Shown here in pieces: positions 2,741 to 62,398 of a DNA stretch of 64,000 bases (positions are counted from its first letter, which is position 1; every line of letters starts with the position of its first letter). The notes under the pieces are model-generated. The model ran no database searches, was not told the origin of the DNA, and saw nothing but the letters and a program-made list of their open reading frames with translations. A program made the position numbers and the translations under genes. This DNA is from Candidatus Uhrbacteria bacterium (GTDB taxonomy: Bacteria; Patescibacteriota; Patescibacteriia; 2-12-FULL-60-25). The stretch lies in the NCBI GenBank assembly GCA_018499965.2, contig JAHBAS020000017.1, forward strand, positions 10,087 through 74,086. Direction: 5' to 3'.

Positions 2741-2900
2741 ACGTGAGAGTAGAGTGGTGAGGGTAGAGGGAAGCGACATGAAGATCAGCTTCCTAATAAA
2801 ACGACCCGTTCTTCCGGAACGAGTCAATGCAACCAGGATAGAGGAGCACATGAGAAATGTCAAGCGAAAGAGATCCTACGCCCTCCTTTCGTTATTCCGC

Positions 2901-2934
2901 AAAAAACCTCCGTGATAAACACGGAGGTTTTTTG
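2901..2934. terminator. Bidirectional rho-independent terminator
   Basis: The run is A6, CCTCCGTG, ATAAA, CACGGAGG, T6. That is a perfect 8-bp stem flanked by A and T runs, directly after the stop of the 492-aa gene (minus strand). Confidence 0.8.
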
Positions 2935-2956
2935 TTTCTAATGCTATACGAGGCCG

Positions 2957-4435
2957 TTATGCCGCCTTGCTCTTTCCTTTTGGTTTCTGCGAGGCTGTCG
3001 GCGAAACTTTAACGCCTGAAGCCTCTGATTCATCTTCGGTAGCATCCTCAAGCTCAGAAAGGTCGACATCTTCTCCTTCCTCAAGAAGCACGTTTACCTG
3101 ACGAAGCTCCTCCTTCAAGGCATGTGACTTTTCCAAAAGCGCTTTGCGCGTTGCTCGAATTTCCTTCGGACGATCTTCATCATCTTGCCATGCGTCAAGC
3201 TCCTTACCGAGGATGACGATATGACCCTCCTGTTCCTTTATGTCTTCCGTGATCTTTGCGCGCGTTTCCGGATCCATCTTCTTCATCATTTTCATCTCAC
3301 TCTGAAGCGTTTCGATCTTGGCATTTGCTGCCGCCATATCTTCACGAATACGACGACCGCGGACATCAAGCTTGGAAGGATCCAGCTCCGAATCAATCAT
3401 CGCAATCTCCGCTTCAAGCATTTTCTTCTTTCCTTCCAGTCGATCCTCTGTGGTCAATGCTCGCTCAACGTTAGCTTCTACAGGCGCCTTCGGTTCCTTA
3501 TAGAAAACGTTCGCGACGACCATGTCGGGCTTTACCTCTTCCGAGATATCACCATCTTCGTACGTCACGCTAATACCATCGTCTTCATCCATCACATCTT
3601 TCATGTTGCGGAAAGAAAACATGCGTTCCGCCTCTTCATACTGTTGACTCCAAAGCATTGTCTCTTCTTGAATCTGAGCCAAACGACGCTGAGCCATATC
3701 GCCAGACATCGCCTTGGTCGCTTCCACTTCTTCCGTTAAATGACGGAATCCTTCTGCAACGCCCTTAAAGGCAAAATCAACAGGAATCTCTTTGACATCT
3801 GAACGAAAACCGAGAAAGCCGCCTTCGGCATCGCGAGCGATGAACTGATCATACCCGCGAGCGCGAGCTTCCATGATCGTTTCCCCTTCCTTATGTGCGA
3901 CTTCCCGATAAGCTTTTGCCTTTTCTTGGAACGCGAGATCGCGACCCAATTCCCGATCAGCTGAAGCTAATTCCCGATCTAACGTTTCTTCCTGCATGGC
4001 TCGACGCGTAGCCTTTTCCTGACGAACGGCACTGATTCGTTCAGTGGAAGGCTTTTGGGACTTCACTTTTCTAACCACTACATCCCTCTTCATAACCGGC
4101 GCATCTTCCACCTCTTCAAGAATATCTTCATCGCCCAATTCCATCACCGGCTTGCGTTTTTCCTTTTTCGCATCCGCAGCCTGAAGTCTTGCGAATTCCG
4201 TCTCCAACCTCACGGGTCGCAATTCATCGTCCACGTCCTCTAGGTCATTATCTGAAAGCTCTACCTCCAATTCGCTGGATAAATCCTCAAGCTCTTCAGG
4301 AGCTTTCCGCTTCCCTTTTGGAATGAGATCGTCTAACGACGTATCGGTTTTCACGAGCTTAAGGCCGTGACGCTTCGGGCGCGGTGGCGGCTCAGAAGCG
4401 GCAGGTACTGGCATGTTTTCAGCGAATGATTTCAT
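2957..4435 (-). CDS. Hyper-charged (E/K/D/R-rich) coiled-coil protein, 492 aa, no recognised family
   Basis: Long intact ORF starting 73 nt downstream of the giant gene on the same strand. Composition is dominated by Glu/Lys/Asp/Arg with heptad-like stretches (LEGKKKMLEAEIAMIDSEL, IETLQSEMKMMKKMD). No TM segment seen. Confidence 0.65.
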   Translation of the reverse strand: MKSFAENMPVPAASEPPPRPKRHGLKLVKTDTSLDDLIPKGKRKAPEELEDLSSELEVELSDNDLEDVDDELRPVRLETEFARLQAADAKKEKRKPVMELGDEDILEEVEDAPVMKRDVVVRKVKSQKPSTERISAVRQEKATRRAMQEETLDRELASADRELGRDLAFQEKAKAYREVAHKEGETIMEARARGYDQFIARDAEGGFLGFRSDVKEIPVDFAFKGVAEGFRHLTEEVEATKAMSGDMAQRRLAQIQEETMLWSQQYEEAERMFSFRNMKDVMDEDDGISVTYEDGDISEEVKPDMVVANVFYKEPKAPVEANVERALTTEDRLEGKKKMLEAEIAMIDSELDPSKLDVRGRRIREDMAAANAKIETLQSEMKMMKKMDPETRAKITEDIKEQEGHIVILGKELDAWQDDEDRPKEIRATRKALLEKSHALKEELRQVNVLLEEGEDVDLSELEDATEDESEASGVKVSPTASQKPKGKSKAA

Positions 4436-4508
4436 AGCATGGGATCATTGATGATTATCGGTGATGGTAACACATTTTTTGTTATTTGTCCAGTTTCATT
4501 GACATTTT

Positions 4509-7500
4509 CTATATCCCCTCTCCCTGACGGATCTGCAAGGATCCAGGGAACACGATCCATGGACGACGCGTATTCTCGCTGCCAAAGCTATCCGTTCCAC
4601 GGTCCGGAGCGCATTCGTTCGGACCGATATACGAAATCGTATTCGTATTCGAACTCATAAGGCTGACATTGCTCTTAATGAGTGAAGCGTCGAAACAGCC
4701 GCCGTTCGGATGACGGATTGCTGAACCAGAAACATCCATTGGCTTTTGCGTTCGCGAATCGACCGTGGCTCGACACTCGCCAGAACACCAACCCCAGTTA
4801 TCAACCAAGAGGATGCGAGGCGTAAATCGACAAGACTGCGTTGAGTTGTCGAAACATCCGGATGACTGAGCGGTATTCGTGATACATGCATCGCCGGGCG
4901 CACAACCACTCGCATCGCTACACGTTCGATTCGGATCGCGCGAGCAACGGCCTCCGGCGCTACACGTCGTAAGTCCACTTCCCGTAAGACAGCTGAAAGC
5001 GTGACGGAATTCGAAGTACTGCTCTTCACACGCATTTCCATCGCTCCCGAACGCCACCCGCGACTCGCAGAATCCTTGTTCGCCACCGATATTGCACTGA
5101 CTATCATTCCAGCATCGTGTATTGGCGCTATTCGAACAGTTTCCCATGGTCACGCATTGACCGCCGCCTGGAGGACAATCCGCATCCGTCTGACAAGTTA
5201 ATCCAGACGTTTCCGTACATTCCTTTGCGGTCTGACAGTATGGCTTTCGATTCTTCAAGTAGGCGTCTGGCAATTCACTACGCGTGCCATCACCCCAATC
5301 AACGATCACGCGACGAAGCGGCATCTGCTCATGCGCGGCCCAGCCGTAGAATCGAATCGTCGCCACATGACTACCGGATCCGCCATTCACCACACCTTCC
5401 GCAACGCCATTGACGCTGAACGTATCAAGCGAAGCGATGCGACATTGCGAACCCTGACACGTGCGAGGATCTGGAGCACCCGTATGCGGAGGCGTTGGAT
5501 TGTAGTAATCCACGTAAGAATAGCTCCCATCAATCGGGCTCATCTCACTTTCTGGCGCGCCCGGACGCAAGTAACGCGGCGAGGAAAGACCTGGCGTCAC
5601 ATCCGTTGGTAGCGGTCGATCGTCGCGAATGCTATTCGACGCATCCGTAAGCGCGTACCCGAACAATCCACAATATTCATCATTTGGATCTTTGCAGAAC
5701 TGCGGACGCGGCCAGTACCCCGCAGGATGCGTACAGATATTGGAGTCCTTTGCCGGATCCGATTCACGAGCCGGACGATTCGCCGCGGTGTCGCTTCCCG
5801 TCGGCCAACACGCGTTTGCATCGCCGCTCGATGGACCCCCGTAGATACCGCCAACCGCATCCGGGTTGTTTCCGTTGGTTACTGGATTGCACCAAGAACC
5901 CGCCTCATCCTGAAGATCATCGAAGTCCGCACGAGAAAGATCCGCCGGTCGGCAATCCACATCCTCAGCGCATGCCTCGCCATCACGCCCACCACCTCGG
6001 CACAAACCGAGAATCGGACGATTCTGGGAAGCGGAAGCTCCTTCTCGATACATCAACGGCAATGATTCACACGCACCGTAATGCGCCCAAATATTCGGAC
6101 TGTCTCCGTCATAATCACCCGTCTGCGTCACGCTCACGTATGGAGCATTATCGTTTAATTCGCTATCCGGATTGTCATTTGGATTATTTACACGCGCCCA
6201 CTGCAAAGGCTCGCGCGCATCGGAACCGGCGTAATTACTATTCAAGTTATCGCTAACAAGTCCATCGGGGGTATACCACCAAATATGCGGATTAAAGCCC
6301 GGATAGAGTGCGAGCAACGGCGTATCATCCCATCGGGCATACGTCAGGATGGCATTATCACCAATGGCCGAAGTTATCGAATTGATACGCGTCGCGTAGA
6401 AACAAATGCCATCGTCGTCATCGCAAGAATCGATCAATGCTCCTCCGCCCATATCATATCCCATTGGAAGAGCTGGCCAGAACGCCTCTGCGTACGCCGA
6501 ATTATTCGGACGAATAACTGTGCCGTCTGTCAGCGTCTGTGAACGTGTAAACCAGGTCATGTCATCATTCAACGTTCCTCCGCGTTCAAAAACGTAGAAG
6601 AAATTTTCGCCATGAGGAATGTAGTCCGAGTTCCTACCGTTCGTATCTTGATTCAACTTCCCTACGTGCTGACCAAGGCCGGAATCCTCATATCCCGTTC
6701 GCGTCCAATAGAAGAAATTATTCGCCGCACCAGATGGCCAGTAGTTACGCGCCATGAAATGACAATCGCTATCTTGCGTACACTGTGCCCATGGATGACC
6801 TTCACAGCGATTGTCATTACAGGTACCGGTAAGAATCTCCGTTGGACACTCCGAACTACTACGACTCTCGCGCGTACAGTAGCTCGCGAACGTTCGACGT
6901 CCATCAATCGTTTCTTTCACGTCCTGAGGATCGCGCACACTGCCTTGGCATCGGAATGCACCGTTTTGGATCGCCACGGATCGGCTACATCCCGTCTGAT
7001 ACGTGCTTGCGGTTGGAACGCATTCGGTTGGACACTGAGCTCCTTCACATCGGAAACGTCCGCTATCCATTTGCGTCCATCGAACGTCGATTTCCTGTTT
7101 CAACGCACCAGTGGTCGTGCCATCAACCGTATCTGCAGCACTTCCTGAAACAGGATGATATCCGGCAAAAAGCTGACACTGACCGTAGCTTGGCGTCAAA
7201 ACGCCATTCCGATCCTCCATCGGCGCCTTATGACAAATATCCGGATCTGACGAACAATCCAAACCTCGGTTCACGCCGCTGAATGCATTACAGACATGCT
7301 GCTGGAAAATATCCGAACCATTCAATCCACCACGAAGACATTTGCCTTGAAGACCGCAATACTGACGGGAAAGCTCTTCGCCGTTCGTCATGTTCGCAAC
7401 CGGAGGACACCACTGTCCGAACTGCGGACTGCGCGGATCCGTACAAGCGTAGTCACTACGTGAAACGCCGCGTGCGTAATATCCGTAGATGCGATAGATC

Positions 7501-10500
7501 TTCGCGAAGACATTGCTCAACATTCCCCACTTGCTCGTTGGATACTGCGCAGCCGTGAAATACGTCTGCCCAGGAGATGTGAATGTTGGCGGATTCGTTG
7601 GATTCACATCCTTCTGCGCCACGCCCGTCATGAAGAGCGGTTGAATACCCGCATCCCCGGTAGCCAAACTGGCGCCGAACGGGATGTTCATCGAGTTCCA
7701 GCTGAATCCGTTCTTCATGCTATATCCGCTATTCGCATTGTTACGATCCGTAAACGCAACCGTCTCATGACTATCCTTGCTCGTCGTTTCCAAAAGCTCG
7801 CGACAGACATCAGCCGAATTCATGTTCATCTTCATGTAGATATACCGCGTCTGATCGCCAGGGGCACAAGCCGTCACCCACAAGCCTACAAATTGGAATG
7901 GACCCACAAGTCGATCAGCAGTCACCTCTTCCGGAGAAAGATCGTTTTCGCTCGGACTCGTATCTTCGAACACCGCACGGATAGAGAACCACGGATGTGC
8001 GGATTCGCACTTTCCGTACAACGGTCGACGCGAGAGATGATCCAATCCATTACGGCCGATATCCGGCGTAAAGGCCTGGAATTTCTGTTGGCCAGCCGCG
8101 CGGTAGTTCAACTCCCAGGTCTTGATGAAACATGTTCCATCTTCACTGCGATTATCAGGCGAGCCCGAACCCCCTCGAATAACGCAATCGACTTTGACCG
8201 GCAAACCGCCCGGAGAGCCGTCTTCGGTCACCACTTTTGCCGTACTTCGATTTAATAATCCACCGCCTTCTTGCAAGAACTTCTGGAAGGTCGCATGCCA
8301 CTGATCATCCGTTCCGCCCCACTTGTCCTTTTCATCATCGTAATCATCCACATGGACGTCTGCCCAGGCCTCACTGTATCCGCATCCGATCTTCCCCTTC
8401 GGAACCGAAAACGTGAAGTTAGCAACAGAATCTTCTAAAGAGTAATCCATGACCGTTTCCCAATCCTGCGGAGGACTCCCGAGCGCCGCGTAGGCGATAT
8501 GCGACGGATTGAACAGGATCGCGTATTCAGCATACGAGCGACCAGACCCCTGACCCGTGGTCACGAGACGCATCGCATCCTGGTTCACCACGAAAGCCTG
8601 GTCTTCATCGTCAATCGCTTCACAACGACCACCTTCTTGCGTTCCATCTGCTCGATGTCCATCCAGGGAAGCACCACCTTCATTTCCGGTACATCCACCC
8701 CAGAAAAGGAAGTTCGTACAGCTTCCATCAGACGTAAACCAATCCGCATAGAACAATGCCTTGATGCGACCAGCGTAATTTCCTTCGCTATTCGGCCAAG
8801 GACCGATCGCGTGTTTGCAGTCATTATCCTCTCCTCCATTACACGCTCCGCCGACATCAATCGCATTACCATTCAAAGCCAAATTCGTTAGATCGTTCGT
8901 TGCCATCGCTGCGAGATACTGCGGGAACACTGCCGCTAGAGCAACCGACTCCCAATCGAATCCTTCATCTGGGATATCTTTCGGCCAAGCGGCTTCCGAA
9001 TTGAACGGCTGCTCACGAGGAGCTCTGACCGGACTGGAACAATAATATCGACCGGATGACTGCGGAGCCTGGAATCCAGCGGTTGGACTCCAGTGATATT
9101 GATCTCCAGGACCAGCGAGCACCGGGGTCGGATTCCATACAAGGCACTCGCTTCGCGTCGAATCCCCGGCAACTGGACGCGAGGCATCGTATTCCAAGCA
9201 CTGACCCGTCACGCCACGCACGAGCTGAACATCCGAAATCGGCATGCACGTTCCACCTTCTCCGCAACGATTGTCCGCATTGCGCTGCGCATTGATCCCA
9301 CCGCCGCTCGAAACCGTCTGCGTACCTGGCGTTTCCCCATCCGCAGAAGGCGTTGTCACGGATACGTTCACCGCTTGGCTACCCTGAATGCCTGAACTTG
9401 GCACGCACGGCAATCCGTCACGAGGTCCACCCTGACATACGGCGTTGACCACGTTCGTGCTAAGCGGCTCATAGAATTTCGATCGACCGCCGCCGTACTT
9501 CACACGCTTATACACGCAAGAACAATCCTCACCGTACTCGCAGAAATTTGCATTCCCGTATCCCGACACCGAACGGGACGGCTCCGGCGGATTCGTAGAA
9601 TCATCCCATTCAAGAACGAAATCATTACTGAATGGGGAATCCGGCTGTGGAGCAGCCTTACACTGCGTATTCGGGAAACTTCGGGAAAGGATTTGATCGA
9701 TATTTGGATTTTCCGTCTGCCCAAAACGACCGATCAAACTTGGACCGTTCAAATTATCCGCAACGAGCGAAGCTCCAGAAACGCCAACCTGCGCCGGCGG
9801 ACTCTGATCGAGCGGCAACCAGCAGTACGATCCATTCGCATCCAGCGTACCGGCGGCATTCGTACGAACGCCGTAGGAATTCGTTTGCGGGAATACACAC
9901 GCGTACGATGCCATGCTCGTTCCCGAAAACGCCCTACCTTCATCTGTCGTTGGCACGCGAGCGCCGTTAGAACTTATCGGCACAGAAACCGCCAAACGAT
10001 AATCCTTCTTAAACTTGGCGGCGATCGCAGGATCCGGCGAAAGCATGGCCGCAATCGGCTTCAAGGTCGCATCCATGACCTGGAAGTGGTTCGGGATCGT
10101 GAACCCGCTATAATCGACTGCGCCAAATCCAACCGCACGAGAAGCGTATGTAGCAGCATCAACGACTCGATACTTCTTCAAGATCGTAATCAGAGAATTC
10201 GAAGTACGATTCACATACCCAGTACAGAACGGAATCCCCTCCCCTTGGTCCGTTGCCTTCGCGTCATTACATAAGGCGAGTTCTGAACAGATGCTCTTAT
10301 ACTGACCCGTTTGCTGATCGTAAACCGTTTCCCCGGTCTTACAGGCCAACCACTGGGAACATGAACGATCCGGTTTTACTTTGAGGATGATATTCGAATT
10401 GTTCCCGTTCTCGACTCCGGCACAATTTGCACGAGCAGCATCCGTATCTATGCCATGTTCAAGCTGAGTGGTGACGCATGCGTTAAAAGAAGCGCTGGTA

Positions 10501-13500
10501 GCATTTCCCGACAATGCCCGCACAACGTCATTCGTCCTTGAGATCACAGATCGGAGACAAGAAGGATGCTGCGGCTGCGCGACGCAATCAATCGGAGCGA
10601 CCGGTTGATATCCGCGCGTCTTGTAGTCATCGAATGTCGCGAGCGCATCGTACTTCAAAGACGTATCCGAGGTATCACGGAACAACACGCATCCTCGCCC
10701 CGGATCAACCTTGCCATTGCAACTCTCTTTATCAAGACGTTCATCATTAATCACGAAATACGGACGACCTTGTGGATGCGCCGGATCGCTCGTATCCGCG
10801 ATATCACGGAACTCAGAACACTCCGCCTGCGTCGCAGGACAAACGCCCGTCCATCCTTCATACGTCTGCGGCGACGTGTACCGATCCGCCATGGATCCGT
10901 TCCACGGGTTATACCCTTGCGAGCCCACGGAAGTCTGATCACCCGCATACATGATGCCGAAGGTCGATCCGCGGCGGAGCATAGCCGGGTAACATGGACA
11001 CTCCGTACCAACCTTGAACCAACCGTCATACGTTGCGCCGACGTACTGCCCTGGATTTGGAAGATCACATCCTGCTGTCGACGGTGCCGCAACGCCATTC
11101 TGCATCGTTGCAACCACAGCTCCAGTCTTATACTCGCAAGCATGATCCGATGGTGCACGGAAATACTCCGTGCCGGATTTTCCACCGCCCGAGAAAGAGA
11201 AAGCCTCGCAGAACAGCTCCGACTCCGTACAGATCGCATCATCGTATTTCGTGACGTCGTCTTTGAGGTACACGGTCTCAAACGCTTGCGTACCGTCGAG
11301 AGTCAATCGATCCTGATTGAACTTCGGCAACCCAAAGGCACGACAGCTGATTTGCGTCTTTGGGCACATGGCATCCTTGCTCTCGATGTAATACTCAAAA
11401 TGATCCGCCTTACGCGCCGTCACCTCCGTTCGACCCACTGATGATCGCTCCCAACGCTGTTCATATGGACTCTCGGAATTTTCCGTATTGATAAAGGCCG
11501 AACACCCGATGGCGGATTCCCGACAAAGCCGCGTGAACTGACGAAGCGTCGAAACGGTATTATTACGATCAACATACTCCTGACATCCGAGCATGGCCTG
11601 CGACTGATACACCCCTTCTGGCGTACGATCACATGATGCCGGGGTATTCCAGGAATCGCGGACCGCATACGCCACATCCGTCACCTGCGTAACGCGGATC
11701 GTATCAATGAACGAAGGAGAGGCATTGAATCCGCTCAACTGAATACGCGTCATGCCATTGGTTGATGCCGATCCCGTGAACGGTCCGATACGATACACAC
11801 CCCACGACGATCGAAGCGTCGCATCTCCGATAACCGTTTCCTCGCTCCCAGTCACCATGTCCCATGACCACACGCGAACATTCACCGGCGATGGAGACGA
11901 TGTCTTTCCCCAGAACTCCAATTCATACAGCAATCCAGGCTGCGTCGGAACGTCGAATGTCACATTTCCCGTTCCCGAACCACCCATTTGGATACGCAAC
12001 GATCGATCGCCTACGAGAACGGATTCCTCAGAGGTATTCAATGTCGGCGCTGCGCTCCCCGGATTCACGGCATACGTCTCTTTGGCGAAATCTTCACTAA
12101 ACACATCCAAACGAACCTGACCTCGCGTTCCGATATAGGCGCGACATCCGGCGACGGTTAACGCACATACGCGAGATTTTTCCGGAACTGCCTGATACAC
12201 GCACTGATTCGTATCTGCCGAAAACGCACCGCCAGTCTTCTCACAATCCGCACGCGTAGAACCTTCCTTTCGGAATGACGTACAAGCCGTATCCGCAAGA
12301 ATCGTCTGGGATTCGAATTGATAGAACACATTTCCCTGCGGATCGTAGAATTGACGACAATCCGGATCGAGCGCCGTCACGTAGCTCAACGCATTACACG
12401 TTGCCGGATCTTTCACCGAACCATCCGGACCCGTCTTCCGGAGCAATAACGGTCCCTGTGGAAGCGCCGCATTCGTATCGCGTTGCAAGCTCCATGTAAC
12501 GAGCTGATATCCAGAAGCCTCGGAACCTTCCCACGTGTAATACGTTTGCGTGGAATCATTCGGTTGTTCACAACTTCGAAGATAGCTGAACCCAGAAGCC
12601 TCTTCCGTCTTCAAATTCGTGAAAGATTCACATCCGATATCTTGCGCAGAACAAAGGCGCGCAGAGCTCGGAACAAAGGCCGCGATCGATTGGTCCTCTG
12701 GATCATCCAGTACCGACACTTCGGTATTGCGGACCAAATCGAATGGCGAAGCTTGCTTACGGAACTCCGCATATCCCACACATTCCGATGGACAAGCATC
12801 CGCAGCCGTAAGCACAGCCGGAATTTCCGGCGCGCCAGACTGTCCCTTTGGACGATACCCCTGACATCCGGCTTCTGATTCTTTACACACACGCGCAAAC
12901 TTCTGACAGAGCGGATGATCTGCACTGTCATTTCCCGTACAGTTCAATTCTGCCGGAGGCACCTTCATGGAAACCGAAGGGAGCGCTGGATTGAGACCAT
13001 CGTTAAACGCCGTTGCCGTCTCGCTCGCCTCCAACTTCACGCCATCCGCAAGCCACGGATCTCCGTCGCCTCGAATGAGGAATATGCGGCTCCATGCCGT
13101 CTCCGGCGGAGCGACGAATGAACACTCGAAACGCTGCCAATCAGACGAAAGCGCGGCCGGCAACAACACGTGCACCTGACCTGAGTTCGTACCATACAAC
13201 GGTATTGCGCCCGAGGCACATGTCGCGCTTCGATAGAACGTCGTATCCGCCGATAAAAAGCTGGAGTTCTTGCTAGGAGGCGTATCCGGATTATTTGGAT
13301 CCGCTCGATAGAAATGCAGAGTCGCACCGGCCGACCGGGTATTACCCGCAATGCCGCGTGCATAGAAAGAAAACGTATACTGCCGTCCTGGTGCAAGTCG
13401 AACGACTTCATGAATAGACGGAGCCACTCTTGGAATATATCCGCGTGCACCATCCATGGCCGCCGCTCCACTTGCAATCGACGGCTCCTGATACGGAACC

Positions 13501-15659
13501 GGCGTCGCATCTTCAAAGAAGGCCGTCGGCTCATGCACCCAACCCGTCAGCACGCCCGTTTTATCATTCGTCTCTTCGAACGATCCGTTTCGAATGAGGT
13601 TAAGCGACGGCTTTCCATTTGTTACACGGCGAAGATCCGTACATCCATCATACTGCCCATCGCATCGGCTGATCGTCTTATCAAAATACGTCTTTCCAGT
13701 CGCTCCGCTATACGTAGCATTCCAAGCATTCGCATTATCACGGGCAGCAACGCTCGTGTCGCGCGTATTCGCATACCACATACACCCCACGTTCGTGTCA
13801 TTACACGAACCGTAATCTACGGTACTGCGAAGATACCCGATCGGTTTGGCGTTTGAACCGCGCGGCGTATACGTACGGCAACTCACATACTGTTCCTGAC
13901 AAGATTCTGCATCAAACTGCCAGAACGTTTGCTCCGCCATACAGTACCCGTATCCTCCCACGCACTTCCCCGCCGCATCACGCTCAAGACAAGACACGGT
14001 ATCCTGACATTCCTGCAAGCGCTGATTCGTTCCAGCTAAAAAGCTATTCCCATACCCCTTGGTCAAGCATTGCGTTGGAAATGAGGTCAATACCCAATTC
14101 GGATCAATAAGGTGACACCATGGGTGCGCTGCATCCAATTCCCCCGCATCATTACAATCATCGAAATGCTGCAAAACTTCTGCCAACGTCATGCATCCAG
14201 ATCCGCTCTGGCACTTCTGCTGGTTCGCCGCGGAGTCCGCCGCCAACTCCCATCCAATCGGAACGATACGAGCCAAGCGCATCTTTCGAATGTTTGCAGC
14301 ACAGAACGCACGCTGCGCACATCCTGGATCAAGATTGTCTTTCGCCTGCGTCGAAGGGATAAGTTCCCATTGCTCATTAATAAATCCGCTGTCGATCGCC
14401 TGACGAACAGTCATATGTCCGTTCTTTCGGAGCGCGGCCTCAAGCGTGCTATCAATTGAACAATTCCACTTCGTACGACCATTATCCGGACACCCCAACA
14501 TCTCGCCCAAGATATCCTGCTGTTCGGACGACGCGATGTTCGGCGTAAGGATTTCGCGGAATTGCGAGGCAAAAATCTCTTCTGATCGACCGGACTGTGA
14601 AAGCAATGGTGCTGCCCCGGAACTCAAAAGATCTGGAACCGAAATGCCGCTCGTTCCAGATGAAAGCAATCCTTTCGTAAGTCGACCAAGCAAACGCGTC
14701 ACGAGCACGTTCGAGAACGTGCTAATCATCACCGTTCCGATCTGCATCGCACCGAGCTTAAACGTATTCTGGAGCAATGTCGTTGTCTTTACGTTCTCCG
14801 CCGCATTCGGTTGGCGAATGATCTGCTCCTTCACATTCTCTTCAACCACCGAAGCCGGCGTTCGCACATTCCCAGAGATCATGTCTTGAACGCTCTTAAA
14901 TCCACGACCCTCGAGTCGATCCAAAACACCCGCTTCCTTCTTTTGAGCCACGGTGTCAAAAAAGGCCGTATTTAAACCAATACCGTAGGCGATATCGTTC
15001 CCCCCGATATTAAAACTACTCTTGATGCTGTGAAGCGCGACTGCATTATCTAATGAATCCGCCGTCGCATTCCAGTTGCTCACAATTTGTGTCCATGCGC
15101 ACTTTGGCTTCGGACGCTTAATGCCATTGATGGCAAAATCTGGAATCGAAAGGGCGAACTGAAGATCGATACCTTGAAAACGCGGTGGTCGACAAAGATT
15201 GATGCCGAACATCCCTTCCGTAAATTGCTCGGAGAATGTCCCGAGGAATTCACCGGCAGCGTCCAATCCAATCTGTTTAATGTAATTTTCGTTTGTAAAA
15301 ATCTCAATGAGCGGACCATTGCCTTTAAACCCGCTCGCGACCCACTCCGCGCTGTCATACGCCAATTGTTGCGCCGCGATCGTCACGGCATTCAATACGC
15401 CCATGTAGAGCGGGAACATGATTTGGAAATCCAAACGCTCTTTCACCTTATCGATTTCCTGCGCGGCGCGCATATCCGTACACCACACGCCTACCCCGCA
15501 CGGCACCACCGTTGGTGTATCCCTGATGCCACCAGACCCCTCGCCTTCCGCACGTGCCTGCGGAATCAGGAACTGGCTTGCGATCGGTCCGGCGAACGCA
15601 CTCACGATAATCGTGATCGCGGTAACGGACTTCCAGAAAAATGAAGGACGGGAGGACAT
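4509..15659 (-). CDS. Giant secreted/cell-surface cysteine-rich protein, 3,716 aa
   Basis: Uninterrupted 11,151-nt ORF. The N-terminal hydrophobic segment (VTAITIIVSAFAGPIASQFLIPQARAEG) fits a signal peptide or anchor. Cys is very frequent, mostly in pairs. There are two NGSFE/jelly-roll-like modules and no catalytic motif that I recognise. All overlapping ORFs in other frames are short and compositionally odd. Confidence 0.85.
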   Translation of the reverse strand: MSSRPSFFWKSVTAITIIVSAFAGPIASQFLIPQARAEGEGSGGIRDTPTVVPCGVGVWCTDMRAAQEIDKVKERLDFQIMFPLYMGVLNAVTIAAQQLAYDSAEWVASGFKGNGPLIEIFTNENYIKQIGLDAAGEFLGTFSEQFTEGMFGINLCRPPRFQGIDLQFALSIPDFAINGIKRPKPKCAWTQIVSNWNATADSLDNAVALHSIKSSFNIGGNDIAYGIGLNTAFFDTVAQKKEAGVLDRLEGRGFKSVQDMISGNVRTPASVVEENVKEQIIRQPNAAENVKTTTLLQNTFKLGAMQIGTVMISTFSNVLVTRLLGRLTKGLLSSGTSGISVPDLLSSGAAPLLSQSGRSEEIFASQFREILTPNIASSEQQDILGEMLGCPDNGRTKWNCSIDSTLEAALRKNGHMTVRQAIDSGFINEQWELIPSTQAKDNLDPGCAQRAFCAANIRKMRLARIVPIGWELAADSAANQQKCQSGSGCMTLAEVLQHFDDCNDAGELDAAHPWCHLIDPNWVLTSFPTQCLTKGYGNSFLAGTNQRLQECQDTVSCLERDAAGKCVGGYGYCMAEQTFWQFDAESCQEQYVSCRTYTPRGSNAKPIGYLRSTVDYGSCNDTNVGCMWYANTRDTSVAARDNANAWNATYSGATGKTYFDKTISRCDGQYDGCTDLRRVTNGKPSLNLIRNGSFEETNDKTGVLTGWVHEPTAFFEDATPVPYQEPSIASGAAAMDGARGYIPRVAPSIHEVVRLAPGRQYTFSFYARGIAGNTRSAGATLHFYRADPNNPDTPPSKNSSFLSADTTFYRSATCASGAIPLYGTNSGQVHVLLPAALSSDWQRFECSFVAPPETAWSRIFLIRGDGDPWLADGVKLEASETATAFNDGLNPALPSVSMKVPPAELNCTGNDSADHPLCQKFARVCKESEAGCQGYRPKGQSGAPEIPAVLTAADACPSECVGYAEFRKQASPFDLVRNTEVSVLDDPEDQSIAAFVPSSARLCSAQDIGCESFTNLKTEEASGFSYLRSCEQPNDSTQTYYTWEGSEASGYQLVTWSLQRDTNAALPQGPLLLRKTGPDGSVKDPATCNALSYVTALDPDCRQFYDPQGNVFYQFESQTILADTACTSFRKEGSTRADCEKTGGAFSADTNQCVYQAVPEKSRVCALTVAGCRAYIGTRGQVRLDVFSEDFAKETYAVNPGSAAPTLNTSEESVLVGDRSLRIQMGGSGTGNVTFDVPTQPGLLYELEFWGKTSSPSPVNVRVWSWDMVTGSEETVIGDATLRSSWGVYRIGPFTGSASTNGMTRIQLSGFNASPSFIDTIRVTQVTDVAYAVRDSWNTPASCDRTPEGVYQSQAMLGCQEYVDRNNTVSTLRQFTRLCRESAIGCSAFINTENSESPYEQRWERSSVGRTEVTARKADHFEYYIESKDAMCPKTQISCRAFGLPKFNQDRLTLDGTQAFETVYLKDDVTKYDDAICTESELFCEAFSFSGGGKSGTEYFRAPSDHACEYKTGAVVATMQNGVAAPSTAGCDLPNPGQYVGATYDGWFKVGTECPCYPAMLRRGSTFGIMYAGDQTSVGSQGYNPWNGSMADRYTSPQTYEGWTGVCPATQAECSEFRDIADTSDPAHPQGRPYFVINDERLDKESCNGKVDPGRGCVLFRDTSDTSLKYDALATFDDYKTRGYQPVAPIDCVAQPQHPSCLRSVISRTNDVVRALSGNATSASFNACVTTQLEHGIDTDAARANCAGVENGNNSNIILKVKPDRSCSQWLACKTGETVYDQQTGQYKSICSELALCNDAKATDQGEGIPFCTGYVNRTSNSLITILKKYRVVDAATYASRAVGFGAVDYSGFTIPNHFQVMDATLKPIAAMLSPDPAIAAKFKKDYRLAVSVPISSNGARVPTTDEGRAFSGTSMASYACVFPQTNSYGVRTNAAGTLDANGSYCWLPLDQSPPAQVGVSGASLVADNLNGPSLIGRFGQTENPNIDQILSRSFPNTQCKAAPQPDSPFSNDFVLEWDDSTNPPEPSRSVSGYGNANFCEYGEDCSCVYKRVKYGGGRSKFYEPLSTNVVNAVCQGGPRDGLPCVPSSGIQGSQAVNVSVTTPSADGETPGTQTVSSGGGINAQRNADNRCGEGGTCMPISDVQLVRGVTGQCLEYDASRPVAGDSTRSECLVWNPTPVLAGPGDQYHWSPTAGFQAPQSSGRYYCSSPVRAPREQPFNSEAAWPKDIPDEGFDWESVALAAVFPQYLAAMATNDLTNLALNGNAIDVGGACNGGEDNDCKHAIGPWPNSEGNYAGRIKALFYADWFTSDGSCTNFLFWGGCTGNEGGASLDGHRADGTQEGGRCEAIDDEDQAFVVNQDAMRLVTTGQGSGRSYAEYAILFNPSHIAYAALGSPPQDWETVMDYSLEDSVANFTFSVPKGKIGCGYSEAWADVHVDDYDDEKDKWGGTDDQWHATFQKFLQEGGGLLNRSTAKVVTEDGSPGGLPVKVDCVIRGGSGSPDNRSEDGTCFIKTWELNYRAAGQQKFQAFTPDIGRNGLDHLSRRPLYGKCESAHPWFSIRAVFEDTSPSENDLSPEEVTADRLVGPFQFVGLWVTACAPGDQTRYIYMKMNMNSADVCRELLETTSKDSHETVAFTDRNNANSGYSMKNGFSWNSMNIPFGASLATGDAGIQPLFMTGVAQKDVNPTNPPTFTSPGQTYFTAAQYPTSKWGMLSNVFAKIYRIYGYYARGVSRSDYACTDPRSPQFGQWCPPVANMTNGEELSRQYCGLQGKCLRGGLNGSDIFQQHVCNAFSGVNRGLDCSSDPDICHKAPMEDRNGVLTPSYGQCQLFAGYHPVSGSAADTVDGTTTGALKQEIDVRWTQMDSGRFRCEGAQCPTECVPTASTYQTGCSRSVAIQNGAFRCQGSVRDPQDVKETIDGRRTFASYCTRESRSSSECPTEILTGTCNDNRCEGHPWAQCTQDSDCHFMARNYWPSGAANNFFYWTRTGYEDSGLGQHVGKLNQDTNGRNSDYIPHGENFFYVFERGGTLNDDMTWFTRSQTLTDGTVIRPNNSAYAEAFWPALPMGYDMGGGALIDSCDDDDGICFYATRINSITSAIGDNAILTYARWDDTPLLALYPGFNPHIWWYTPDGLVSDNLNSNYAGSDAREPLQWARVNNPNDNPDSELNDNAPYVSVTQTGDYDGDSPNIWAHYGACESLPLMYREGASASQNRPILGLCRGGGRDGEACAEDVDCRPADLSRADFDDLQDEAGSWCNPVTNGNNPDAVGGIYGGPSSGDANACWPTGSDTAANRPARESDPAKDSNICTHPAGYWPRPQFCKDPNDEYCGLFGYALTDASNSIRDDRPLPTDVTPGLSSPRYLRPGAPESEMSPIDGSYSYVDYYNPTPPHTGAPDPRTCQGSQCRIASLDTFSVNGVAEGVVNGGSGSHVATIRFYGWAAHEQMPLRRVIVDWGDGTRSELPDAYLKNRKPYCQTAKECTETSGLTCQTDADCPPGGGQCVTMGNCSNSANTRCWNDSQCNIGGEQGFCESRVAFGSDGNACEEQYFEFRHAFSCLTGSGLTTCSAGGRCSRDPNRTCSDASGCAPGDACITNTAQSSGCFDNSTQSCRFTPRILLVDNWGWCSGECRATVDSRTQKPMDVSGSAIRHPNGGCFDASLIKSNVSLMSSNTNTISYIGPNECAPDRGTDSFGSENTRRPWIVFPGSLQIRQGEGI

Positions 15660-15662
15660 ACG

Positions 15663-16370
15663 TTATGGGGTAGGAGCAGAGGAAGATGCTGACGTGGAAG
15701 AGCTATTCGAGGAACCGGCGTTCGCACTTCCCGAAAACGCCGCTTGAGATTGATCATACGCATCCAGCAAGGCCTGATCCGAGTAATTCGCCAAATCGGC
15801 ATCCGAAACACCTTGAGATTTTAAGAAGGCTCGAATCGATGCCGGACTTCGATCTGGAACGATTGTCCCGCCGCTACTCCCTGAATCAAGCATTAATCCC
15901 GAACCCGCCCCCACCGAAGAAGAGGTTGCCGAAAGAGACGGCAATAGGCATACCTGTCCTTTTGGACAATTCGGGTCCGTCTGATTTGCGATTTCGGTAT
16001 TATCCGGAACACCATCCGAATCCGTATCTCTCAAATACGAAGACGTACGATAGATATTCGCTTCATCCCAATCGGACAAACCATCCCCATCCGCATCAGA
16101 GCGTTTTGCCTTCGCTTCTTTTTCTTCATCCGTTGGACCAAGCATGTTCCGAATCTCAACAAGGCGCTCCACCGGAGCCGTAAACGGCATAATGATTGAA
16201 CGACGAATCTGCACAACCGTTAAAACCATTGCGATCACGCCGCACAATCCAAAAATCCACGCAGAAATTTTTTGTTCGCGCGTTGAAGAATGCCACCAGG
16301 ACTTTAATCGAGTAAACAGATGGATCTTGCCGCAAATGCGGATGAAAAAAGTATACCACAAGAGAGCCAA
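15663..16370 (-). CDS. Single-pass membrane protein with thrombospondin-type-3-like Ca-binding Asp repeats
   Basis: Has a TM segment ISAWIFGLCGVIAMVLTVVQI and Asp-rich repeats KRSDADGDGLSDWDEANIY and LRDTDSDGVPDNTEIANQTDPNCP. The C-terminal tail is Ser/Gly/Ala-rich. The stop lies 3 nt before the giant gene's ATG. The start is uncertain: the ORF opens with TTG and I saw no SD. Confidence 0.7.
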   Translation of the reverse strand: MALLWYTFFIRICGKIHLFTRLKSWWHSSTREQKISAWIFGLCGVIAMVLTVVQIRRSIIMPFTAPVERLVEIRNMLGPTDEEKEAKAKRSDADGDGLSDWDEANIYRTSSYLRDTDSDGVPDNTEIANQTDPNCPKGQVCLLPSLSATSSSVGAGSGLMLDSGSSGGTIVPDRSPASIRAFLKSQGVSDADLANYSDQALLDAYDQSQAAFSGSANAGSSNSSSTSASSSAPTP

Positions 16371-16432
16371 AAACGAGAGAGAAAAACCGGGCTATCGACG
16401 GCATCCCACAAGCTATCGTACACTATGCCCGT

Positions 16433-16810
16433 ATGACCCCATCTCACTCCCCCATCCACGAATGGACATCCTCCATGGAGGAAGGCCAGTTGAGCGTTGA
16501 CGTGTTTCGTGATAAGCAAGATCTCGTCGTTCGATCGACGGTGTCCGGCGCCAAGCCAGAAGATATCGATATCTCCATTCACGGCGATTTGATGACCATT
16601 CGAGGAAAGCGCGAATCGCAGAATACCGCCCGCGAGGAAGATTGGTTCTACCGCGAATGTTACTGGGGCGCTTTCAGCCGAAGCATCGTCCTCCCCTACG
16701 ACGTCAAAGCCGATAAAGCCGAAGCATCCATGACCAACGGCGTTCTCGAAATCCGCATCCCGATCCGAGACGTCGGCGAACGAAATATCCCGATACGTAT
16801 TAAAGAGTAA
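16433..16810 (+). CDS. Small heat-shock protein, Hsp20/alpha-crystallin family
   Basis: Alpha-crystallin domain pattern GQLSVDVFRDKQDLVVRSTVSGAKPEDIDISIHGDLMTIRGKRE...FSRSIVLPYDVKADKAEASMTNGVLEIRIP. Confidence 0.85.
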   Translation: MTPSHSPIHEWTSSMEEGQLSVDVFRDKQDLVVRSTVSGAKPEDIDISIHGDLMTIRGKRESQNTAREEDWFYRECYWGAFSRSIVLPYDVKADKAEASMTNGVLEIRIPIRDVGERNIPIRIKE

Positions 16811-16825
16811 GTCGCCCCGCCTCGT

Positions 16826-17059
16826 ATGACTCCCATCTCCGCTACCGTAACCTCTATTGAGCAAGATATCGCAACCGTGCAATGCGTGGATGGCCAAACC
16901 CTTCGCCTCCCGCTAGACGCATTCGCCGGTACGCCGACGCTCAACACCCCTGTCCATATTATCGTTGCACCGGTCCAAGCAACCGATGCGGCGACCCGAG
17001 AATTATCACGACATATCATCAATGAATTCCTCGGTTCATCGCCGACGCAAGCATCATAA
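16826..17059 (+). CDS. Hypothetical small protein (77 aa)
   Basis: ORF packed between hsp20 (15 nt gap) and the VanW gene (23 nt gap) on the same strand. Amino-acid composition is ordinary. No family recognised. Confidence 0.45.
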   Translation: MTPISATVTSIEQDIATVQCVDGQTLRLPLDAFAGTPTLNTPVHIIVAPVQATDAATRELSRHIINEFLGSSPTQAS

Positions 17060-62291: not shown

Positions 62292-62398
62292 AATTAGTCG
62301 TATATACTTGACAAAAGTAACAAATTGCCCTACCGTCGAGCGTTCTTTCACAACTTTCTGGTTTTACACCCTTGAACAGCAAGGAGTTCGAAAATAAC

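What the first reader, a model, noticed from the sequence alone, without database searches (positions are those of the whole stretch)
4509..16370. Three-gene surface module built around a 3,716-aa cysteine-rich giant protein
An unbroken 11.15-kb ORF takes up 17% of this window. It has an N-terminal signal/anchor segment and no catalytic or classic adhesin motif (RHS, cadherin, Ig-like repeat array, RTX) that I can recognise. By eye about 3-4% of residues are Cys, on the order of a hundred; I did not count them. Its ATG lies 3 nt after the stop of a single-pass membrane protein carrying thrombospondin-type-3-like Ca-binding repeats (DADGDGLSDWDE, DTDSDGVPDNTE). A 492-aa hyper-charged coiled-coil protein starts 73 nt downstream. 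The first strong terminator comes only after that gene, at 2901..2934. The layout suggests a co-transcribed membrane anchor, giant extracellular protein and coiled-coil partner. Giant proteins are common in reduced-genome episymbiotic bacteria and are suspected to mediate host contact, but this architecture has no assigned function.
Basis: partly seen in the sequence, partly recalled or inferred. Interest (0 to 1): 0.75.

Follow-up and report, generated by a model that had tools for sequence, protein, structure and literature searches.

The report
Conserved giant cysteine-rich surface protein pair
A 3,716-residue secreted, disulfide-rich protein and the small calcium-binding membrane protein encoded just upstream form a gene pair conserved across a large family in ultra-small Patescibacteria (CPR), probably a cell-surface attachment or envelope structure whose function has never been tested.

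Summary
There is an intact 11.15-kb ORF (3,716 aa, 144 Cys = 3.9%). A TM/TSP3-repeat gene ends 3 nt upstream, an E/K/R-rich 492-aa gene starts 73 nt downstream, and a strong terminator follows that gene.

The giant is not a singleton. An exhaustive profile search found 1,425 representative proteins (50% clusters), mostly 2,600-4,400 aa with 3-6% Cys. Every member that carries a source name is a Patescibacteria/Uhrbacteria hypothetical protein. No Pfam, NCBIfam or PDB family covers it, apart from two CBM4/9-type jelly rolls.

Most Cys in the conserved regions are invariant, and 94 of 114 full-length members have an even Cys count, which points to structural disulfides. The family has one N-terminal signal segment and no other TM segment, LPXTG, RTX or haem motif.

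The small TM+TSP3 gene sits directly upstream in all 15 related loci that include upstream DNA, including 30%-identity members. The real unit is therefore a two-gene module.

The charged downstream gene has no export signal and occurs only in the closer Uhrbacteria-like clade. Its membership of the module is unproven.

Best reading: a Sec-exported, disulfide-stapled, glycan-binding surface protein held at the membrane by a Ca-binding partner. Adhesion or an envelope role is inferred, not shown.

The parts
15663..16370 (-). Partner ('anchor') gene. It encodes a short cytoplasmic N-terminus, one TM helix, two TSP3 Ca-binding repeats, a CPxGxxC pair, a Ser-rich linker and a conserved C-terminal helical motif. 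The coordinates give the maximal ORF; the true start is probably later.
16350..16358 (-). TGGTATACT, an extended -10-like box conserved with the closest relative L006 (TGCTATACT). It lies inside the maximal anchor ORF. It is a candidate promoter of the module.
   Evidence: sequence comparison only; not flagged by the consensus scan
16212..16268 (-). Anchor TM helix (aa 35-53, ISAWIFGLCGVIAMVLTVV), preceded by the conserved basic motif TREQK.
15993..16097 (-). Two thrombospondin-type-3-like Ca-binding repeats (DADGDGLSDWDE ... DTDSDGVPDNTE).
15750..15863 (-). Conserved C-terminal motif of the anchor (PDRxPxxIRxFLxxxGVSxxxLxxxSDxxLLxAYD). No family match.
4509..15659 (-). Giant gene: 3,716 aa, about 402 kDa, pI 4.8, 144 Cys.
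15549..15659 (-). N-terminal signal segment (aa 1-37) with hydrophobic core aa 14-32. An ARA|EG site is shared as A-x-A with close relatives. It is the only TM-like segment in the family.
   Evidence: cleavage inferred
14667..15470 (-). Conserved N-terminal region of long helices (aa 64-331). Helix pLDDT is 60-84. It is amphipathic, not TM-grade.
13590..14522 (-). Most conserved, family-defining Cys-rich domain (aa 380-690). AF2 pLDDT is about 90 for aa 380-560. No PDB or Pfam match.
12990..13592 (-). First CBM4/9/16/22-type jelly-roll module (aa ~690-890).
11655..12107 (-). Second CBM-type jelly-roll module (aa ~1185-1335), homologous to the first. It is part of an old internal duplication: aa 584-1031 resembles aa 1123-1454.
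5490..9029 (-). Clade-specific region (aa ~2211-3390). It aligns poorly and is indel-rich across the family, yet is as conserved as the core (59%) against the close relative P0009.
4512..5477 (-). Conserved C-terminal domain (aa 3395-3716; ...VDWGDG...YKNxRG...PRVxVxDNWGWCxGxC...PWxxFxGxIxVxP). No Pfam or PDB match.
4464..4492 (-). Promoter-like site (TGGACA-17-TACCAT with TG) in the 73-nt spacer before the charged gene.
   Evidence: consensus match only
2957..4435 (-). E/K/R/D-rich 492-aa protein with no hydrophobic segment. It is a positional orthologue of 299-621-aa charged proteins in the closer clade only. Its link to the module is unproven.
2900..2934 (-). Intrinsic terminator (15-bp stem including A/U-run pairs, then U6) that ends the transcription unit before nusA.

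Best explanation
The core of the finding is a two-gene cell-surface module conserved across a large family in Patescibacteria (CPR).

Gene 1 encodes a small type-II single-pass membrane protein. Its ectodomain carries two TSP3-type Ca2+-binding loops, one Cys pair, a flexible Ser-rich linker and a small conserved C-terminal motif.

Gene 2 encodes a ~400-kDa acidic protein. It is exported by Sec through its single N-terminal signal segment, which is probably cleaved at A-x-A. It is folded with about 70 disulfide bonds. It consists of:
- a conserved helical N-terminal region;
- a novel Cys-rich core made of short C-x6-C-x2-[FY] hairpin-like units;
- two CBM4/9-type glycan-binding jelly rolls;
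- a clade-specific region of about 1,200 aa;
- a conserved C-terminal domain.

Proposed mechanism. The mature giant has no membrane or wall-sorting signal of its own. It is therefore retained at the cell surface by the co-expressed membrane partner, plausibly in a Ca2+-dependent way. It projects from the envelope and uses its jelly rolls and distal parts to bind glycans or surfaces of another cell or of its own wall. It would then act as an attachment or envelope fibre of these host-dependent ultra-small bacteria.

Shown here: the gene pair and its conservation, the export signal, the Cys pattern, the jelly rolls and the TSP3 loops.

Inferred: signal-peptide cleavage, disulfides, the physical interaction of the two proteins, the role of Ca2+, the ligand, and the adhesion or envelope role.

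The downstream charged protein is a clade-restricted, probably cytoplasmic neighbour. It may share the transcript but is not part of the family-wide module.
For: Family size and shape: 1,425 representative proteins at E<=1e-3 and 1,097 at E<=1e-30, mostly 2,600-4,400 aa, with 3.1-5.7% Cys.

Intactness: single uninterrupted ORFs in L007, L008, L011, L012, L013, L015, L019, L020 and L021.

Partner linkage: a TM+TSP3 gene lies directly upstream, on the same strand, in all 15 related loci that include upstream DNA. This covers giant identities of 75% down to about 30%. The gap is 1-114 nt. TSP3_bac hits 9 of 10 orthologues, 3 of them above the gathering score.

Export: a hydrophobic N-terminal segment is present in 85% of members. 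No TM-grade segment occurs elsewhere in 106 of 114 members. None has a C-terminal hydrophobic tail, and LPXTG occurs in 1 of 114. The A-x-A site is shared with close relatives.

Disulfides: almost all Cys in aa 150-2210 and in the C-terminal domain are invariant. 94 of 114 full-length members have an even Cys count. 26 of 62 variable Cys share their presence/absence pattern with the adjacent Cys, against a shuffle mean of 8.2 and maximum of 22. There are no CxxCH or CxxC motifs.

Glycan-binding modules: CBM_4_9 hits 9 of 14 members, best E 1.6e-12. Foldseek matches CBM16, CBM4 and CBM22 at TM 0.6-0.7 for both AF2 tiles. The two modules are homologous by hhalign, 93% probability.

Context: the locus is chromosomal and housekeeping (yidC, nusA, vanW, SMC-like, gyrA, rpoBC, ftsK), with synteny kept in relatives. 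No relative was found in the viral contig collection.

Precedent: large, very Cys-rich extracellular proteins proposed to act in attachment have been described for CPR Peribacteria (PMC4736985).
Against: There is no experimental or expression evidence. The two AF2 tiles are of modest quality (mean pLDDT 64 and 59), and only the jelly rolls find structural neighbours.

No interaction between anchor and giant was modelled. Adjacency is the only link.

Typical adhesins are repetitive, fast-evolving and often multi-copy. This protein is non-repetitive by BLAST. It has a conserved 2,100-aa core, sits in a housekeeping neighbourhood, and gave one locus per genome. That pattern fits a core structural or machinery role at least as well as host-specific adhesion.

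The 'variable' region is not faster-evolving than the core between close relatives, which weakens a host-specificity reading.

The long hydrophobic core (about 19-22 aa) of the N-terminal segment could be an uncleaved signal anchor, which would make a tether unnecessary.

Disulfide-forming enzymes were not looked for outside the window, and none was seen inside it.
Confidence: 0.5

Rival explanations
1. Envelope or S-layer-like structural protein. The giant is a core building block of the unusual CPR cell envelope. It would be bound to the cell's own wall glycans by the two conserved jelly rolls and to the membrane by the partner. It would not be a host adhesin.
For: The 2,100-aa core is conserved with invariant Cys across a family of at least 1,425 clusters. 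The scan of species genomes gave one locus per genome, in a conserved housekeeping neighbourhood. The CBM modules lie in the conserved part, which implies a conserved ligand. The clade-specific region evolves at the same rate as the core between close relatives. The protein is acidic (pI 4.8), like many surface-layer proteins (the comparison is from general knowledge).
Against: Known S-layer proteins are usually 40-200 kDa and Cys-poor, and carry SLH or similar anchoring domains (general knowledge). No such domain was found. There is no evidence of abundance or lattice formation.
Confidence: 0.25
2. Three-gene operon. The charged 492-aa protein would be a functional partner, for example a cytoplasmic scaffold that engages the anchor's conserved cytoplasmic TREQK tail.
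For: The gene is on the same strand, 73 nt downstream, with no terminator-like structure in the spacer and a strong terminator only after it. A charged protein of similar composition, with shared short motifs (PPRPK, GLKN, N[LV]FY), holds the same position in L002, L004, L005, L007, L011 and L015. The cytoplasmic juxtamembrane motif of the anchor is conserved.
Against: It has no signal peptide or TM segment. It is absent downstream of the giant in L008, L012, L013, L019, L020 and L021. Similarity among the positional orthologues is marginal: 23-24% identity, with E about 1e-5 in a tiny database of compositionally biased sequences. There is a promoter-like site in the spacer. No family match was found.
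Confidence: 0.2
3. Secreted effector or toxin. It would be a released protein that attacks or permeabilises the host cell, with a helical N-terminal domain plus carbohydrate-binding domains as in Vip3, Cry or binary-toxin B components.
For: Foldseek lists Vip3Aa, Cry1/8/11 and iota/CDTb among the matches. The N-terminus is made of long helices. There is no wall-sorting signal.
Against: Those matches have TM scores normalised to target length of 0.1-0.2, and they rank among matches to isolated CBM16/4/22 modules of about 145 residues. They are therefore best explained by the shared jelly-roll module (my inference; the tool gives no query coordinates). No pore-forming or enzymatic domain is detected. 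A dedicated membrane partner argues for retention at the surface. The C-terminus is conserved rather than polymorphic.
Confidence: 0.07
4. Extracellular metal-binding or redox protein. The paired Cys would ligate metals (Zn, Fe-S) rather than form disulfides.
For: Cys is conserved at 3-6% in organisms that often live in anoxic groundwater. Even Cys counts also fit 4-Cys sites.
Against: There are no CxxC or CxxCH motifs. Spacings are mostly 6-7 residues between two Cys flanking hairpin-like segments. Cys are gained and lost two at a time. The protein is exported and acidic.
Confidence: 0.05
5. Artefact or decaying gene. The long ORF would be a chance or misassembled reading frame, or a pseudogene in the making.
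For: One relative (L002 = L016, a 1-Mb long-read contig) has the gene in three frames, and a Logan contig shows the same sequence at the second site.
Against: The window ORF has no stop in 11,151 nt. Nine other relatives have intact ORFs. Homology is strong along the whole length. Invariant residues occur throughout.
Confidence: 0.02

Closest known systems
Large, very cysteine-rich extracellular proteins of CPR Peribacteria (Anantharaman et al. 2016, PMC4736985)
   Same: Both come from CPR hosts. Both are large, carry a signal peptide, have high Cys content, have a proposed attachment role and have no assigned function.
   Different: Those proteins average about 1,655 aa with about 7% Cys. They occur as a multi-gene cluster, some with FG-GAP annotations. 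No homology to them was tested here. The present family is one gene of 3-4.4 kaa with a fixed TSP3 partner.
Giant Ca2+-dependent RTX/BIg adhesins of Gram-negative bacteria (LapA, SiiE, MpIBP type)
   Same: Both are very large, acidic surface proteins. Both involve Ca2+-binding elements and have ligand-binding (sugar-binding) modules near one end.
   Different: Those adhesins use type-1 secretion, long arrays of near-identical Ig-like repeats, RTX nonapeptides and no Cys. None of these is present here: there are no GGxGxD motifs, no internal repeats by BLAST, and a Sec signal instead.
Giant wall-anchored adhesins of Gram-positive bacteria (Ebh/Embp, and Giant1-5 of Apilactobacillus, PMC12863079)
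   Same: Both are 3,000-10,000-aa Sec-exported surface proteins of monoderm cells with small genomes.
   Different: Those proteins are repetitive helical or Ig-like arrays with LPXTG or a C-terminal TM anchor, and are Cys-poor. Here the protein is non-repetitive and Cys-rich, has no sorting signal, and has a separate membrane partner. The Apilactobacillus paper was seen only as title and abstract.
CBM4/9/16/22 carbohydrate-binding modules, including those in phage receptor-binding proteins
   Same: The jelly-roll fold is shared. Pfam CBM_4_9 hits 9 of 14 members. Foldseek gives TM 0.6-0.7 to CBM16, CBM4-2 and CBM22, with hits to phage tail-fibre and BppA-type proteins.
   Different: The window copy scores just below Pfam's cut-off (24.5 against 25.9 bits). 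Sequence identity is 12-19%. Ligand-binding residues were not examined. There is no attached glycoside hydrolase.
Bacterial TSP3-repeat surface proteins (Myxococcus CglD, MtsD; PF18884)
   Same: They share D-x-D-x-D-G-x-x-D-x-x-E Ca-binding loops in an extracytoplasmic protein involved in cell-surface adhesion complexes.
   Different: Only two repeats are present, in a ~200-aa TM protein. NCBIfam scores are 20-21 bits against cut-offs of 400-800, so it is not an orthologue of CglD or MtsD.
Cellulosome-type anchoring (Ca2+-dependent dockerin-cohesin; scaffoldin with CBM)
   Same: The logic is similar: a small cell-bound anchor, a Ca-binding duplicated loop motif, and a large secreted CBM-bearing scaffold.
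   Different: No cohesin or dockerin domain is detected. This is an analogy from general knowledge only.

Membership tests
Unnamed Patescibacteria giant Cys-rich protein family (this work) | Homology over the conserved N-terminal ~1,150 aa and a conserved Cys pattern | tested here: met
   Profile search found 1,425 hits, 1,097 of them at E<=1e-30. Cys are invariant in the alignments.
Unnamed Patescibacteria giant Cys-rich protein family (this work) | TM+TSP3 partner gene directly upstream | tested here: met
   Found in 15 of 15 related loci that include upstream DNA, and in the window.
CBM_4_9 (PF02018) carbohydrate-binding module | Pfam gathering score | tested here: inconclusive
   The window scores 24.5 bits against a 25.9 cut-off. 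9 of 14 family members match, best E 1.6e-12.
CBM_4_9 (PF02018) carbohydrate-binding module | Beta-jelly-roll fold | tested here: met
   Foldseek matches CBM16, CBM4 and CBM22 at E 1e-5 to 1e-6, target-normalised TM 0.6-0.7, for both tiles. The two copies are homologous by hhalign, 93% probability.
CBM_4_9 (PF02018) carbohydrate-binding module | Carbohydrate binding | not testable with these tools
   This needs glycan arrays or ITC on recombinant modules.
TSP3_bac (PF18884) Ca-binding repeat | Pfam gathering score and D-x-D-x-D-G-x-x-D motif | tested here: inconclusive
   The window scores 21.9 bits against 25, over 2 stretches, and the motif is present twice. 9 of 10 orthologues hit, 3 of them above the cut-off at 34-36 bits.
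CglD / MtsD (NCBIfam NF033765, NF047639) | Equivalog score | tested here: not met
   Scores of 20-21 bits against cut-offs of 400 and 800. Only the TSP3 loops align.
RTX adhesins | GGxGxD nonapeptide repeats and tandem Ig-like repeats | tested here: not met
   There are no GGxGxD motifs, no internal repeat by self-BLAST and no Pfam hit.
Sortase-anchored (LPXTG) surface proteins | C-terminal LPXTG plus a hydrophobic tail | tested here: not met
   There is no LPxTG in the window protein. No family member has a C-terminal hydrophobic segment, and 1 of 114 has an LPxT[GAS]-like string.
Rhs/YD-repeat or polymorphic toxins | YD repeats and a variable C-terminal toxin domain | tested here: not met
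   There are no YD motifs and no Pfam hit. The C-terminal 320 aa are conserved across the family.
PKD domain (my reading of the VDWGDG motif in the C-terminal domain) | Pfam or PDB profile match | tested here: not met
   No PKD family hit at E<=1 in 11 C-terminal domains. There is no PDB hit for the profile. The fold was not predicted.
Multihaem cytochromes or thioredoxin-like redox proteins | CxxCH or CxxC motifs | tested here: not met
   None is present.
S-layer proteins | SLH or another known anchoring domain; lattice formation | tested here: inconclusive
   No SLH or S-layer Pfam hit was found. Lattice formation and abundance are not testable here.

The most novel reading that the evidence does not exclude
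The TSP3 anchor plus giant pair would be a lineage-defining, previously undescribed cell-contact apparatus of Parcubacteria/Uhrbacteria-type CPR bacteria. It would be a Ca2+-latched, ~400-kDa, disulfide-stapled surface fibre built from a new fold class (C-x6-C hairpin units around two jelly rolls). These ultra-small cells would use it to hold on to their hosts, and its clade-specific distal third would track host range.
Probability: 0.25. Interest if true: 0.8.

Novelty: new variant of a known kind. Interest (0 to 1): 0.55.

Why it matters
How most CPR/Patescibacteria attach to and depend on other cells is unknown. Outside Saccharibacteria and Absconditabacteria almost nothing is characterised.

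This two-gene module is vertically conserved across more than a thousand sequence clusters. It takes up about 1% of a ~1-Mb genome. It has no Pfam or PDB coverage over about 90% of its length. That makes it a concrete and testable candidate for the envelope or attachment structure of a major part of the radiation.

The data also give practical handles. These include a compact, well-conserved core domain (aa 380-690) that can serve as a family marker, two putative glycan-binding modules that can be expressed, and a small partner protein for interaction tests.

The unit is two genes, not three, and the giant is a member of a large family rather than a singleton.

Tried and rejected
- Whole-protein word-index search timed out. 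I replaced it with 1,200-aa tiles and the exhaustive profile search.
- PDB sequence searches found nothing. I tried the whole protein, the C-terminal-domain profile and the core-domain profile.
- NCBIfam found nothing for the giant or the charged protein.
- The PKD reading of the VDWGDG motif in the C-terminal domain got no Pfam support.
- RTX, LPXTG, YD, CxxCH and CxxC motifs are all absent.
- Extra TM helices in the N-terminal helical region are not supported. Family median hydropathy is about 1.25.
- I dropped the idea of a 'hypervariable host-specificity region'. Identity to the close relative P0009 is 0.59 both in the core and in aa 2211-3390.
- A phage or mobile origin is unlikely. The viral contig scan found no relative, and the context is housekeeping.
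- Foldseek hits to Vip3, Cry, iota toxin and phage tail fibres are explained by the shared jelly roll.
- Five full-text literature searches found no description of this family. They turned up only the general Peribacteria precedent.
- The third word-index search, with a core-domain profile, returned only 8 fragments. It added taxon labels but nothing else.

Full report
**Observation**

The window carries, on the minus strand, an uninterrupted ORF at 4509..15659 (3,716 codons, ATG). Upstream is a 235-codon maximal ORF at 15663..16370. Downstream is a 492-codon ORF at 2957..4435.

Translation confirms no internal stop. The giant has 144 Cys (3.9%), and the downstream protein is 14.8% Glu.

The hairpin after the third gene folds at -23.6 kcal/mol (z = -6.1) and is followed by U6. 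The 73-nt spacer has no structure beyond chance, but it does contain a promoter-like hexamer pair with a TG extension.

The two Asp-rich motifs in the upstream protein match Pfam TSP3_bac, just under threshold in the window (21.9 against 25 bits). The same model hits 9 of 10 orthologues, three of them above threshold.

**Context and organism**

The neighbours are housekeeping genes:
- yidC and nusA on one side;
- hsp20 (divergent), vanW, an SMC/RecN-like ATPase, a DHH phosphoesterase, clpP, gyrA, ruvC, rpoC, rpoB, ftsK, recA, comEC, leuS and lexA on the other.

Only one tRNA and no other Rfam family lies in the 64 kb. Relatives of the giant that carry a source name are labelled Candidatus Uhrbacteria, Shapirobacteria, Parcubacteria or Patescibacteria group. 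A few MAGs with the same CPR-type synteny carry implausible labels. The locus is therefore chromosomal, in a CPR bacterium. The closest genome found (L006) has 74-75% identity over the first 1,820 aa.

**The giant belongs to a large family**

Word-index searches found only a handful of ~50%-identical fragments. An exhaustive HMMER search with a profile of the first 1,150 aa found much more. Against 1.84 billion cluster representatives it returned 1,425 proteins at E<=1e-3 and 1,097 at E<=1e-30. Most of the best 150 are 2,600-4,400 aa long, with 3.1-5.7% Cys.

Alignments of 14-72 members give three zones:
- a conserved core from about aa 100 to 2210, in which nearly every Cys is invariant;
- a poorly alignable, indel-rich stretch at aa ~2211-3390;
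- a conserved C-terminal domain at aa 3395-3716.

Against the close relative P0009, the 'variable' stretch is as conserved (59%) as the core. It is therefore clade-specific rather than hypervariable.

The gene is intact in relatives. Single ORFs of 2,935-4,348 codons are present in nine loci. Only one long-read 1-Mb contig shows two frame changes.

**What the giant is made of**

There is a single N-terminal hydrophobic segment (aa 14-32) followed by ARA|EG. The A-x-A site is shared with close relatives.

Across the family:
- 85% of members have such a segment;
- 106 of 114 full-length members have no other TM-grade segment;
- none has a C-terminal hydrophobic tail;
- LPXTG is essentially absent.

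RTX, YD, CxxCH and CxxC motifs are absent. The protein is acidic (pI 4.8, ~402 kDa).

The Cys behave like disulfide partners:
- they are invariant where the alignment is good;
- 94 of 114 full-length members have an even number, about 7 standard deviations from a 50:50 expectation by my arithmetic;
- variable Cys tend to appear and disappear together with the adjacent Cys, 26 of 62 against a shuffle mean of 8.2.

That last control ignores phylogeny and shared indels, so it is supportive rather than decisive.

A short unit, C-x6-C-x2-[FYW], recurs at least nine times in the core.

Pfam finds only CBM_4_9, at aa 687-782. It is sub-threshold in the window but hits 9 of 14 members, best E 1.6e-12.

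AF2 models of aa 1-1150 and aa 1151-2300 are of modest overall quality (mean pLDDT 64 and 59). They contain confident parts:
- aa 380-560 at about 90;
- the beta sandwich at aa ~690-890 at 80-90;
- a second sandwich at aa ~1185-1335 at 70-87;
- long helices at aa 64-331 at 60-84.

Foldseek against the PDB returns only CBM16/CBM4/CBM22-type jelly rolls (E 1e-5 to 1e-6, target-normalised TM 0.6-0.7), plus proteins that contain such modules (Vip3, Cry, iota/CDTb, phage receptor-binding proteins).

Local hhalign shows the two sandwiches are homologous (93% probability). A tile-by-tile scan shows collinear similarity between aa 584-1031 and aa 1123-1454. This is an ancient duplication of a 'Cys hairpins - jelly roll - Cys hairpins' unit.

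The family-defining domain (aa 380-690) and the C-terminal domain have no PDB or Pfam match, even as profiles.

**The partner**

The upstream protein has, in order:
- a short basic cytoplasmic stretch (…TREQK);
- one strong TM helix (aa 35-53);
- a conserved PF motif;
- two TSP3 loops;
- a DPNCPxGxxC pair;
- a low-complexity linker;
- a conserved C-terminal motif (PDRxPxxIRxFLxxxGVSxxxLxxxSDxxLLxAYD).

A gene of this architecture lies directly upstream of the giant, on the same strand, 1-114 nt away, in every related locus that includes upstream DNA. That covers 12 loci from the species-genome scan and L001/L002, plus three members at about 30-34% identity (L019, L020, L021). This is the strongest functional link in the data.

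The exact start of the window's copy is unclear. A conserved TGnTATACT box and a frame-breaking indel relative to L006 lie inside the maximal ORF. L006 has an ATG where the window has ACG.

**The third gene**

The 492-aa protein has no hydrophobic segment and no family match. Heptad-like stretches appear only in its C-terminal third.

A protein of the same composition, with a few shared short motifs, holds the same position in L002, L004, L005, L007, L011 and L015. Similarity is marginal. It is absent after the giant in L008, L012, L013, L019, L020 and L021.

The terminator separates it from nusA, so it belongs either to the giant's transcript or to a short transcript of its own. It is best treated as a clade-restricted, probably cytoplasmic neighbour. 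A link to the anchor's cytoplasmic tail is possible but untested.

**Mechanism**

Shown here:
- a conserved gene pair;
- a Sec-type signal;
- no retention signal in the giant itself;
- a Cys pattern typical of structural disulfides;
- two glycan-binding-type modules;
- Ca-binding loops in a membrane-anchored partner.

Inferred: the giant is exported, probably cleaved and oxidatively folded. It is kept at the surface by the partner, plausibly through Ca2+. There it binds glycans or surfaces, either of a host or partner cell (adhesin) or of its own wall (envelope component). I give the surface-module reading as a whole 0.5.

Within that reading, adhesion and envelope roles cannot be separated with these tools. 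The conserved core, the single locus per genome and the housekeeping synteny lean towards a core structural role. The CPR lifestyle and the phage-RBP-like jelly rolls lean towards contact with another cell.

The toxin, redox and artefact readings are unlikely, for the reasons given under the rival explanations.

**Comparison with what is known**

The nearest described phenomenon is the set of large, very Cys-rich extracellular proteins of CPR Peribacteria, proposed to act in attachment (PMC4736985). I did not test homology to those proteins.

Functionally, the module resembles giant Ca-dependent adhesins and anchor-plus-scaffold systems. However, it fails every defining test for RTX adhesins, LPXTG proteins, Rhs toxins, CglD/MtsD and PKD (see the membership table).

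It is therefore a new variant of a known kind, namely giant secreted surface proteins of reduced-genome bacteria. It belongs to a large but undescribed family.

**Limits**

- There are no expression, proteomic or read-level data.
- Only aa 1-2300 were modelled, with shallow alignments.
- Foldseek output gives no query coordinates. The placement of the jelly rolls rests on Pfam coordinates, model secondary structure and hhalign.
- Copy number per genome is inferred only from one locus per genome in a pattern-limited scan.
- The family's taxonomic breadth rests on the few members that carry names.

Noticed in passing
window 16225-16370 (- strand): The anchor gene's start codon is unclear. A conserved TGnTATACT box (16358..16350) and a 1-nt indel relative to L006 lie inside the maximal ORF. 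L006 has an in-frame ATG (MKREQK) where the window has ACG (16283..16281). The next ATG (16229) is in the middle of the TM helix.
   Followed up: partly
L002 / L016 (~4369 and ~9740 in L002), L003: In the 1.02-Mb long-read contig of MAG MFD03726 the giant gene is split over three frames. A Logan contig has the identical sequence at the second site. This is either a homopolymer or long-read error, or a genuinely decaying copy. All short-read relatives are intact.
   Followed up: partly
L001/L005/L010 (GCA_035561755), L006, L007, L012, L013: MAGs that carry this CPR-type locus and synteny are labelled 'Candidatus Methylomirabilis sp.' or 'uncultured Gammaproteobacteria'. These are probably taxonomic mislabels or mis-binned contigs.
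   Followed up: no
window 16433-16810 (+): An hsp20 gene is transcribed divergently from the anchor gene. The same arrangement occurs in L001, L002 and the distant L021. The 197-aa ORF at 16304-16897 (-) overlaps it on the opposite strand, has no family hit, and is probably spurious.
   Followed up: partly
window 59700-62291 (+) and 62372-63847 (+): An 863-aa Lamin-tail-domain protein is followed by a 491-aa protein with no family match. This may be another surface gene pair.
   Followed up: no
L021 14589-15632: A 347-aa protein with 8.6% Cys and a 14-residue Pro run lies directly downstream of a 4,329-aa family member. It is a different Cys-rich neighbour in place of the charged protein.
   Followed up: no
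L005 5817-6068; L021 15697-15987: Genes of the 23S rRNA intervening-sequence protein family (PF05635) sit next to the giant gene in two unrelated loci.
   Followed up: no
L020 13307-19064: In one distant member the giant is followed by a 1,082-aa multi-TM protein, a 685-aa Pro/Ala-rich protein and a PrgI-family gene, which suggests a type-IV-secretion-like neighbourhood. This was not seen in the other loci.
   Followed up: no
window giant aa 584-1031 vs 1123-1454 (window 12567-13910 and 11298-12293): Profile-profile comparison reveals an ancient internal duplication (Cys hairpins - jelly roll - Cys hairpins). It is invisible to self-BLAST.
   Followed up: yes
window 1-64000: GC skew is negative in every 2-kb bin, so cumulative skew is monotonic, and most long genes are on the minus strand. 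The window probably lies within one replichore.
   Followed up: no
window 41479-42267 (-): A 262-aa protein combines an HTH_25 domain with a Glucodextran_B-like domain. It is encoded just downstream of ftsK on the same strand.
   Followed up: no
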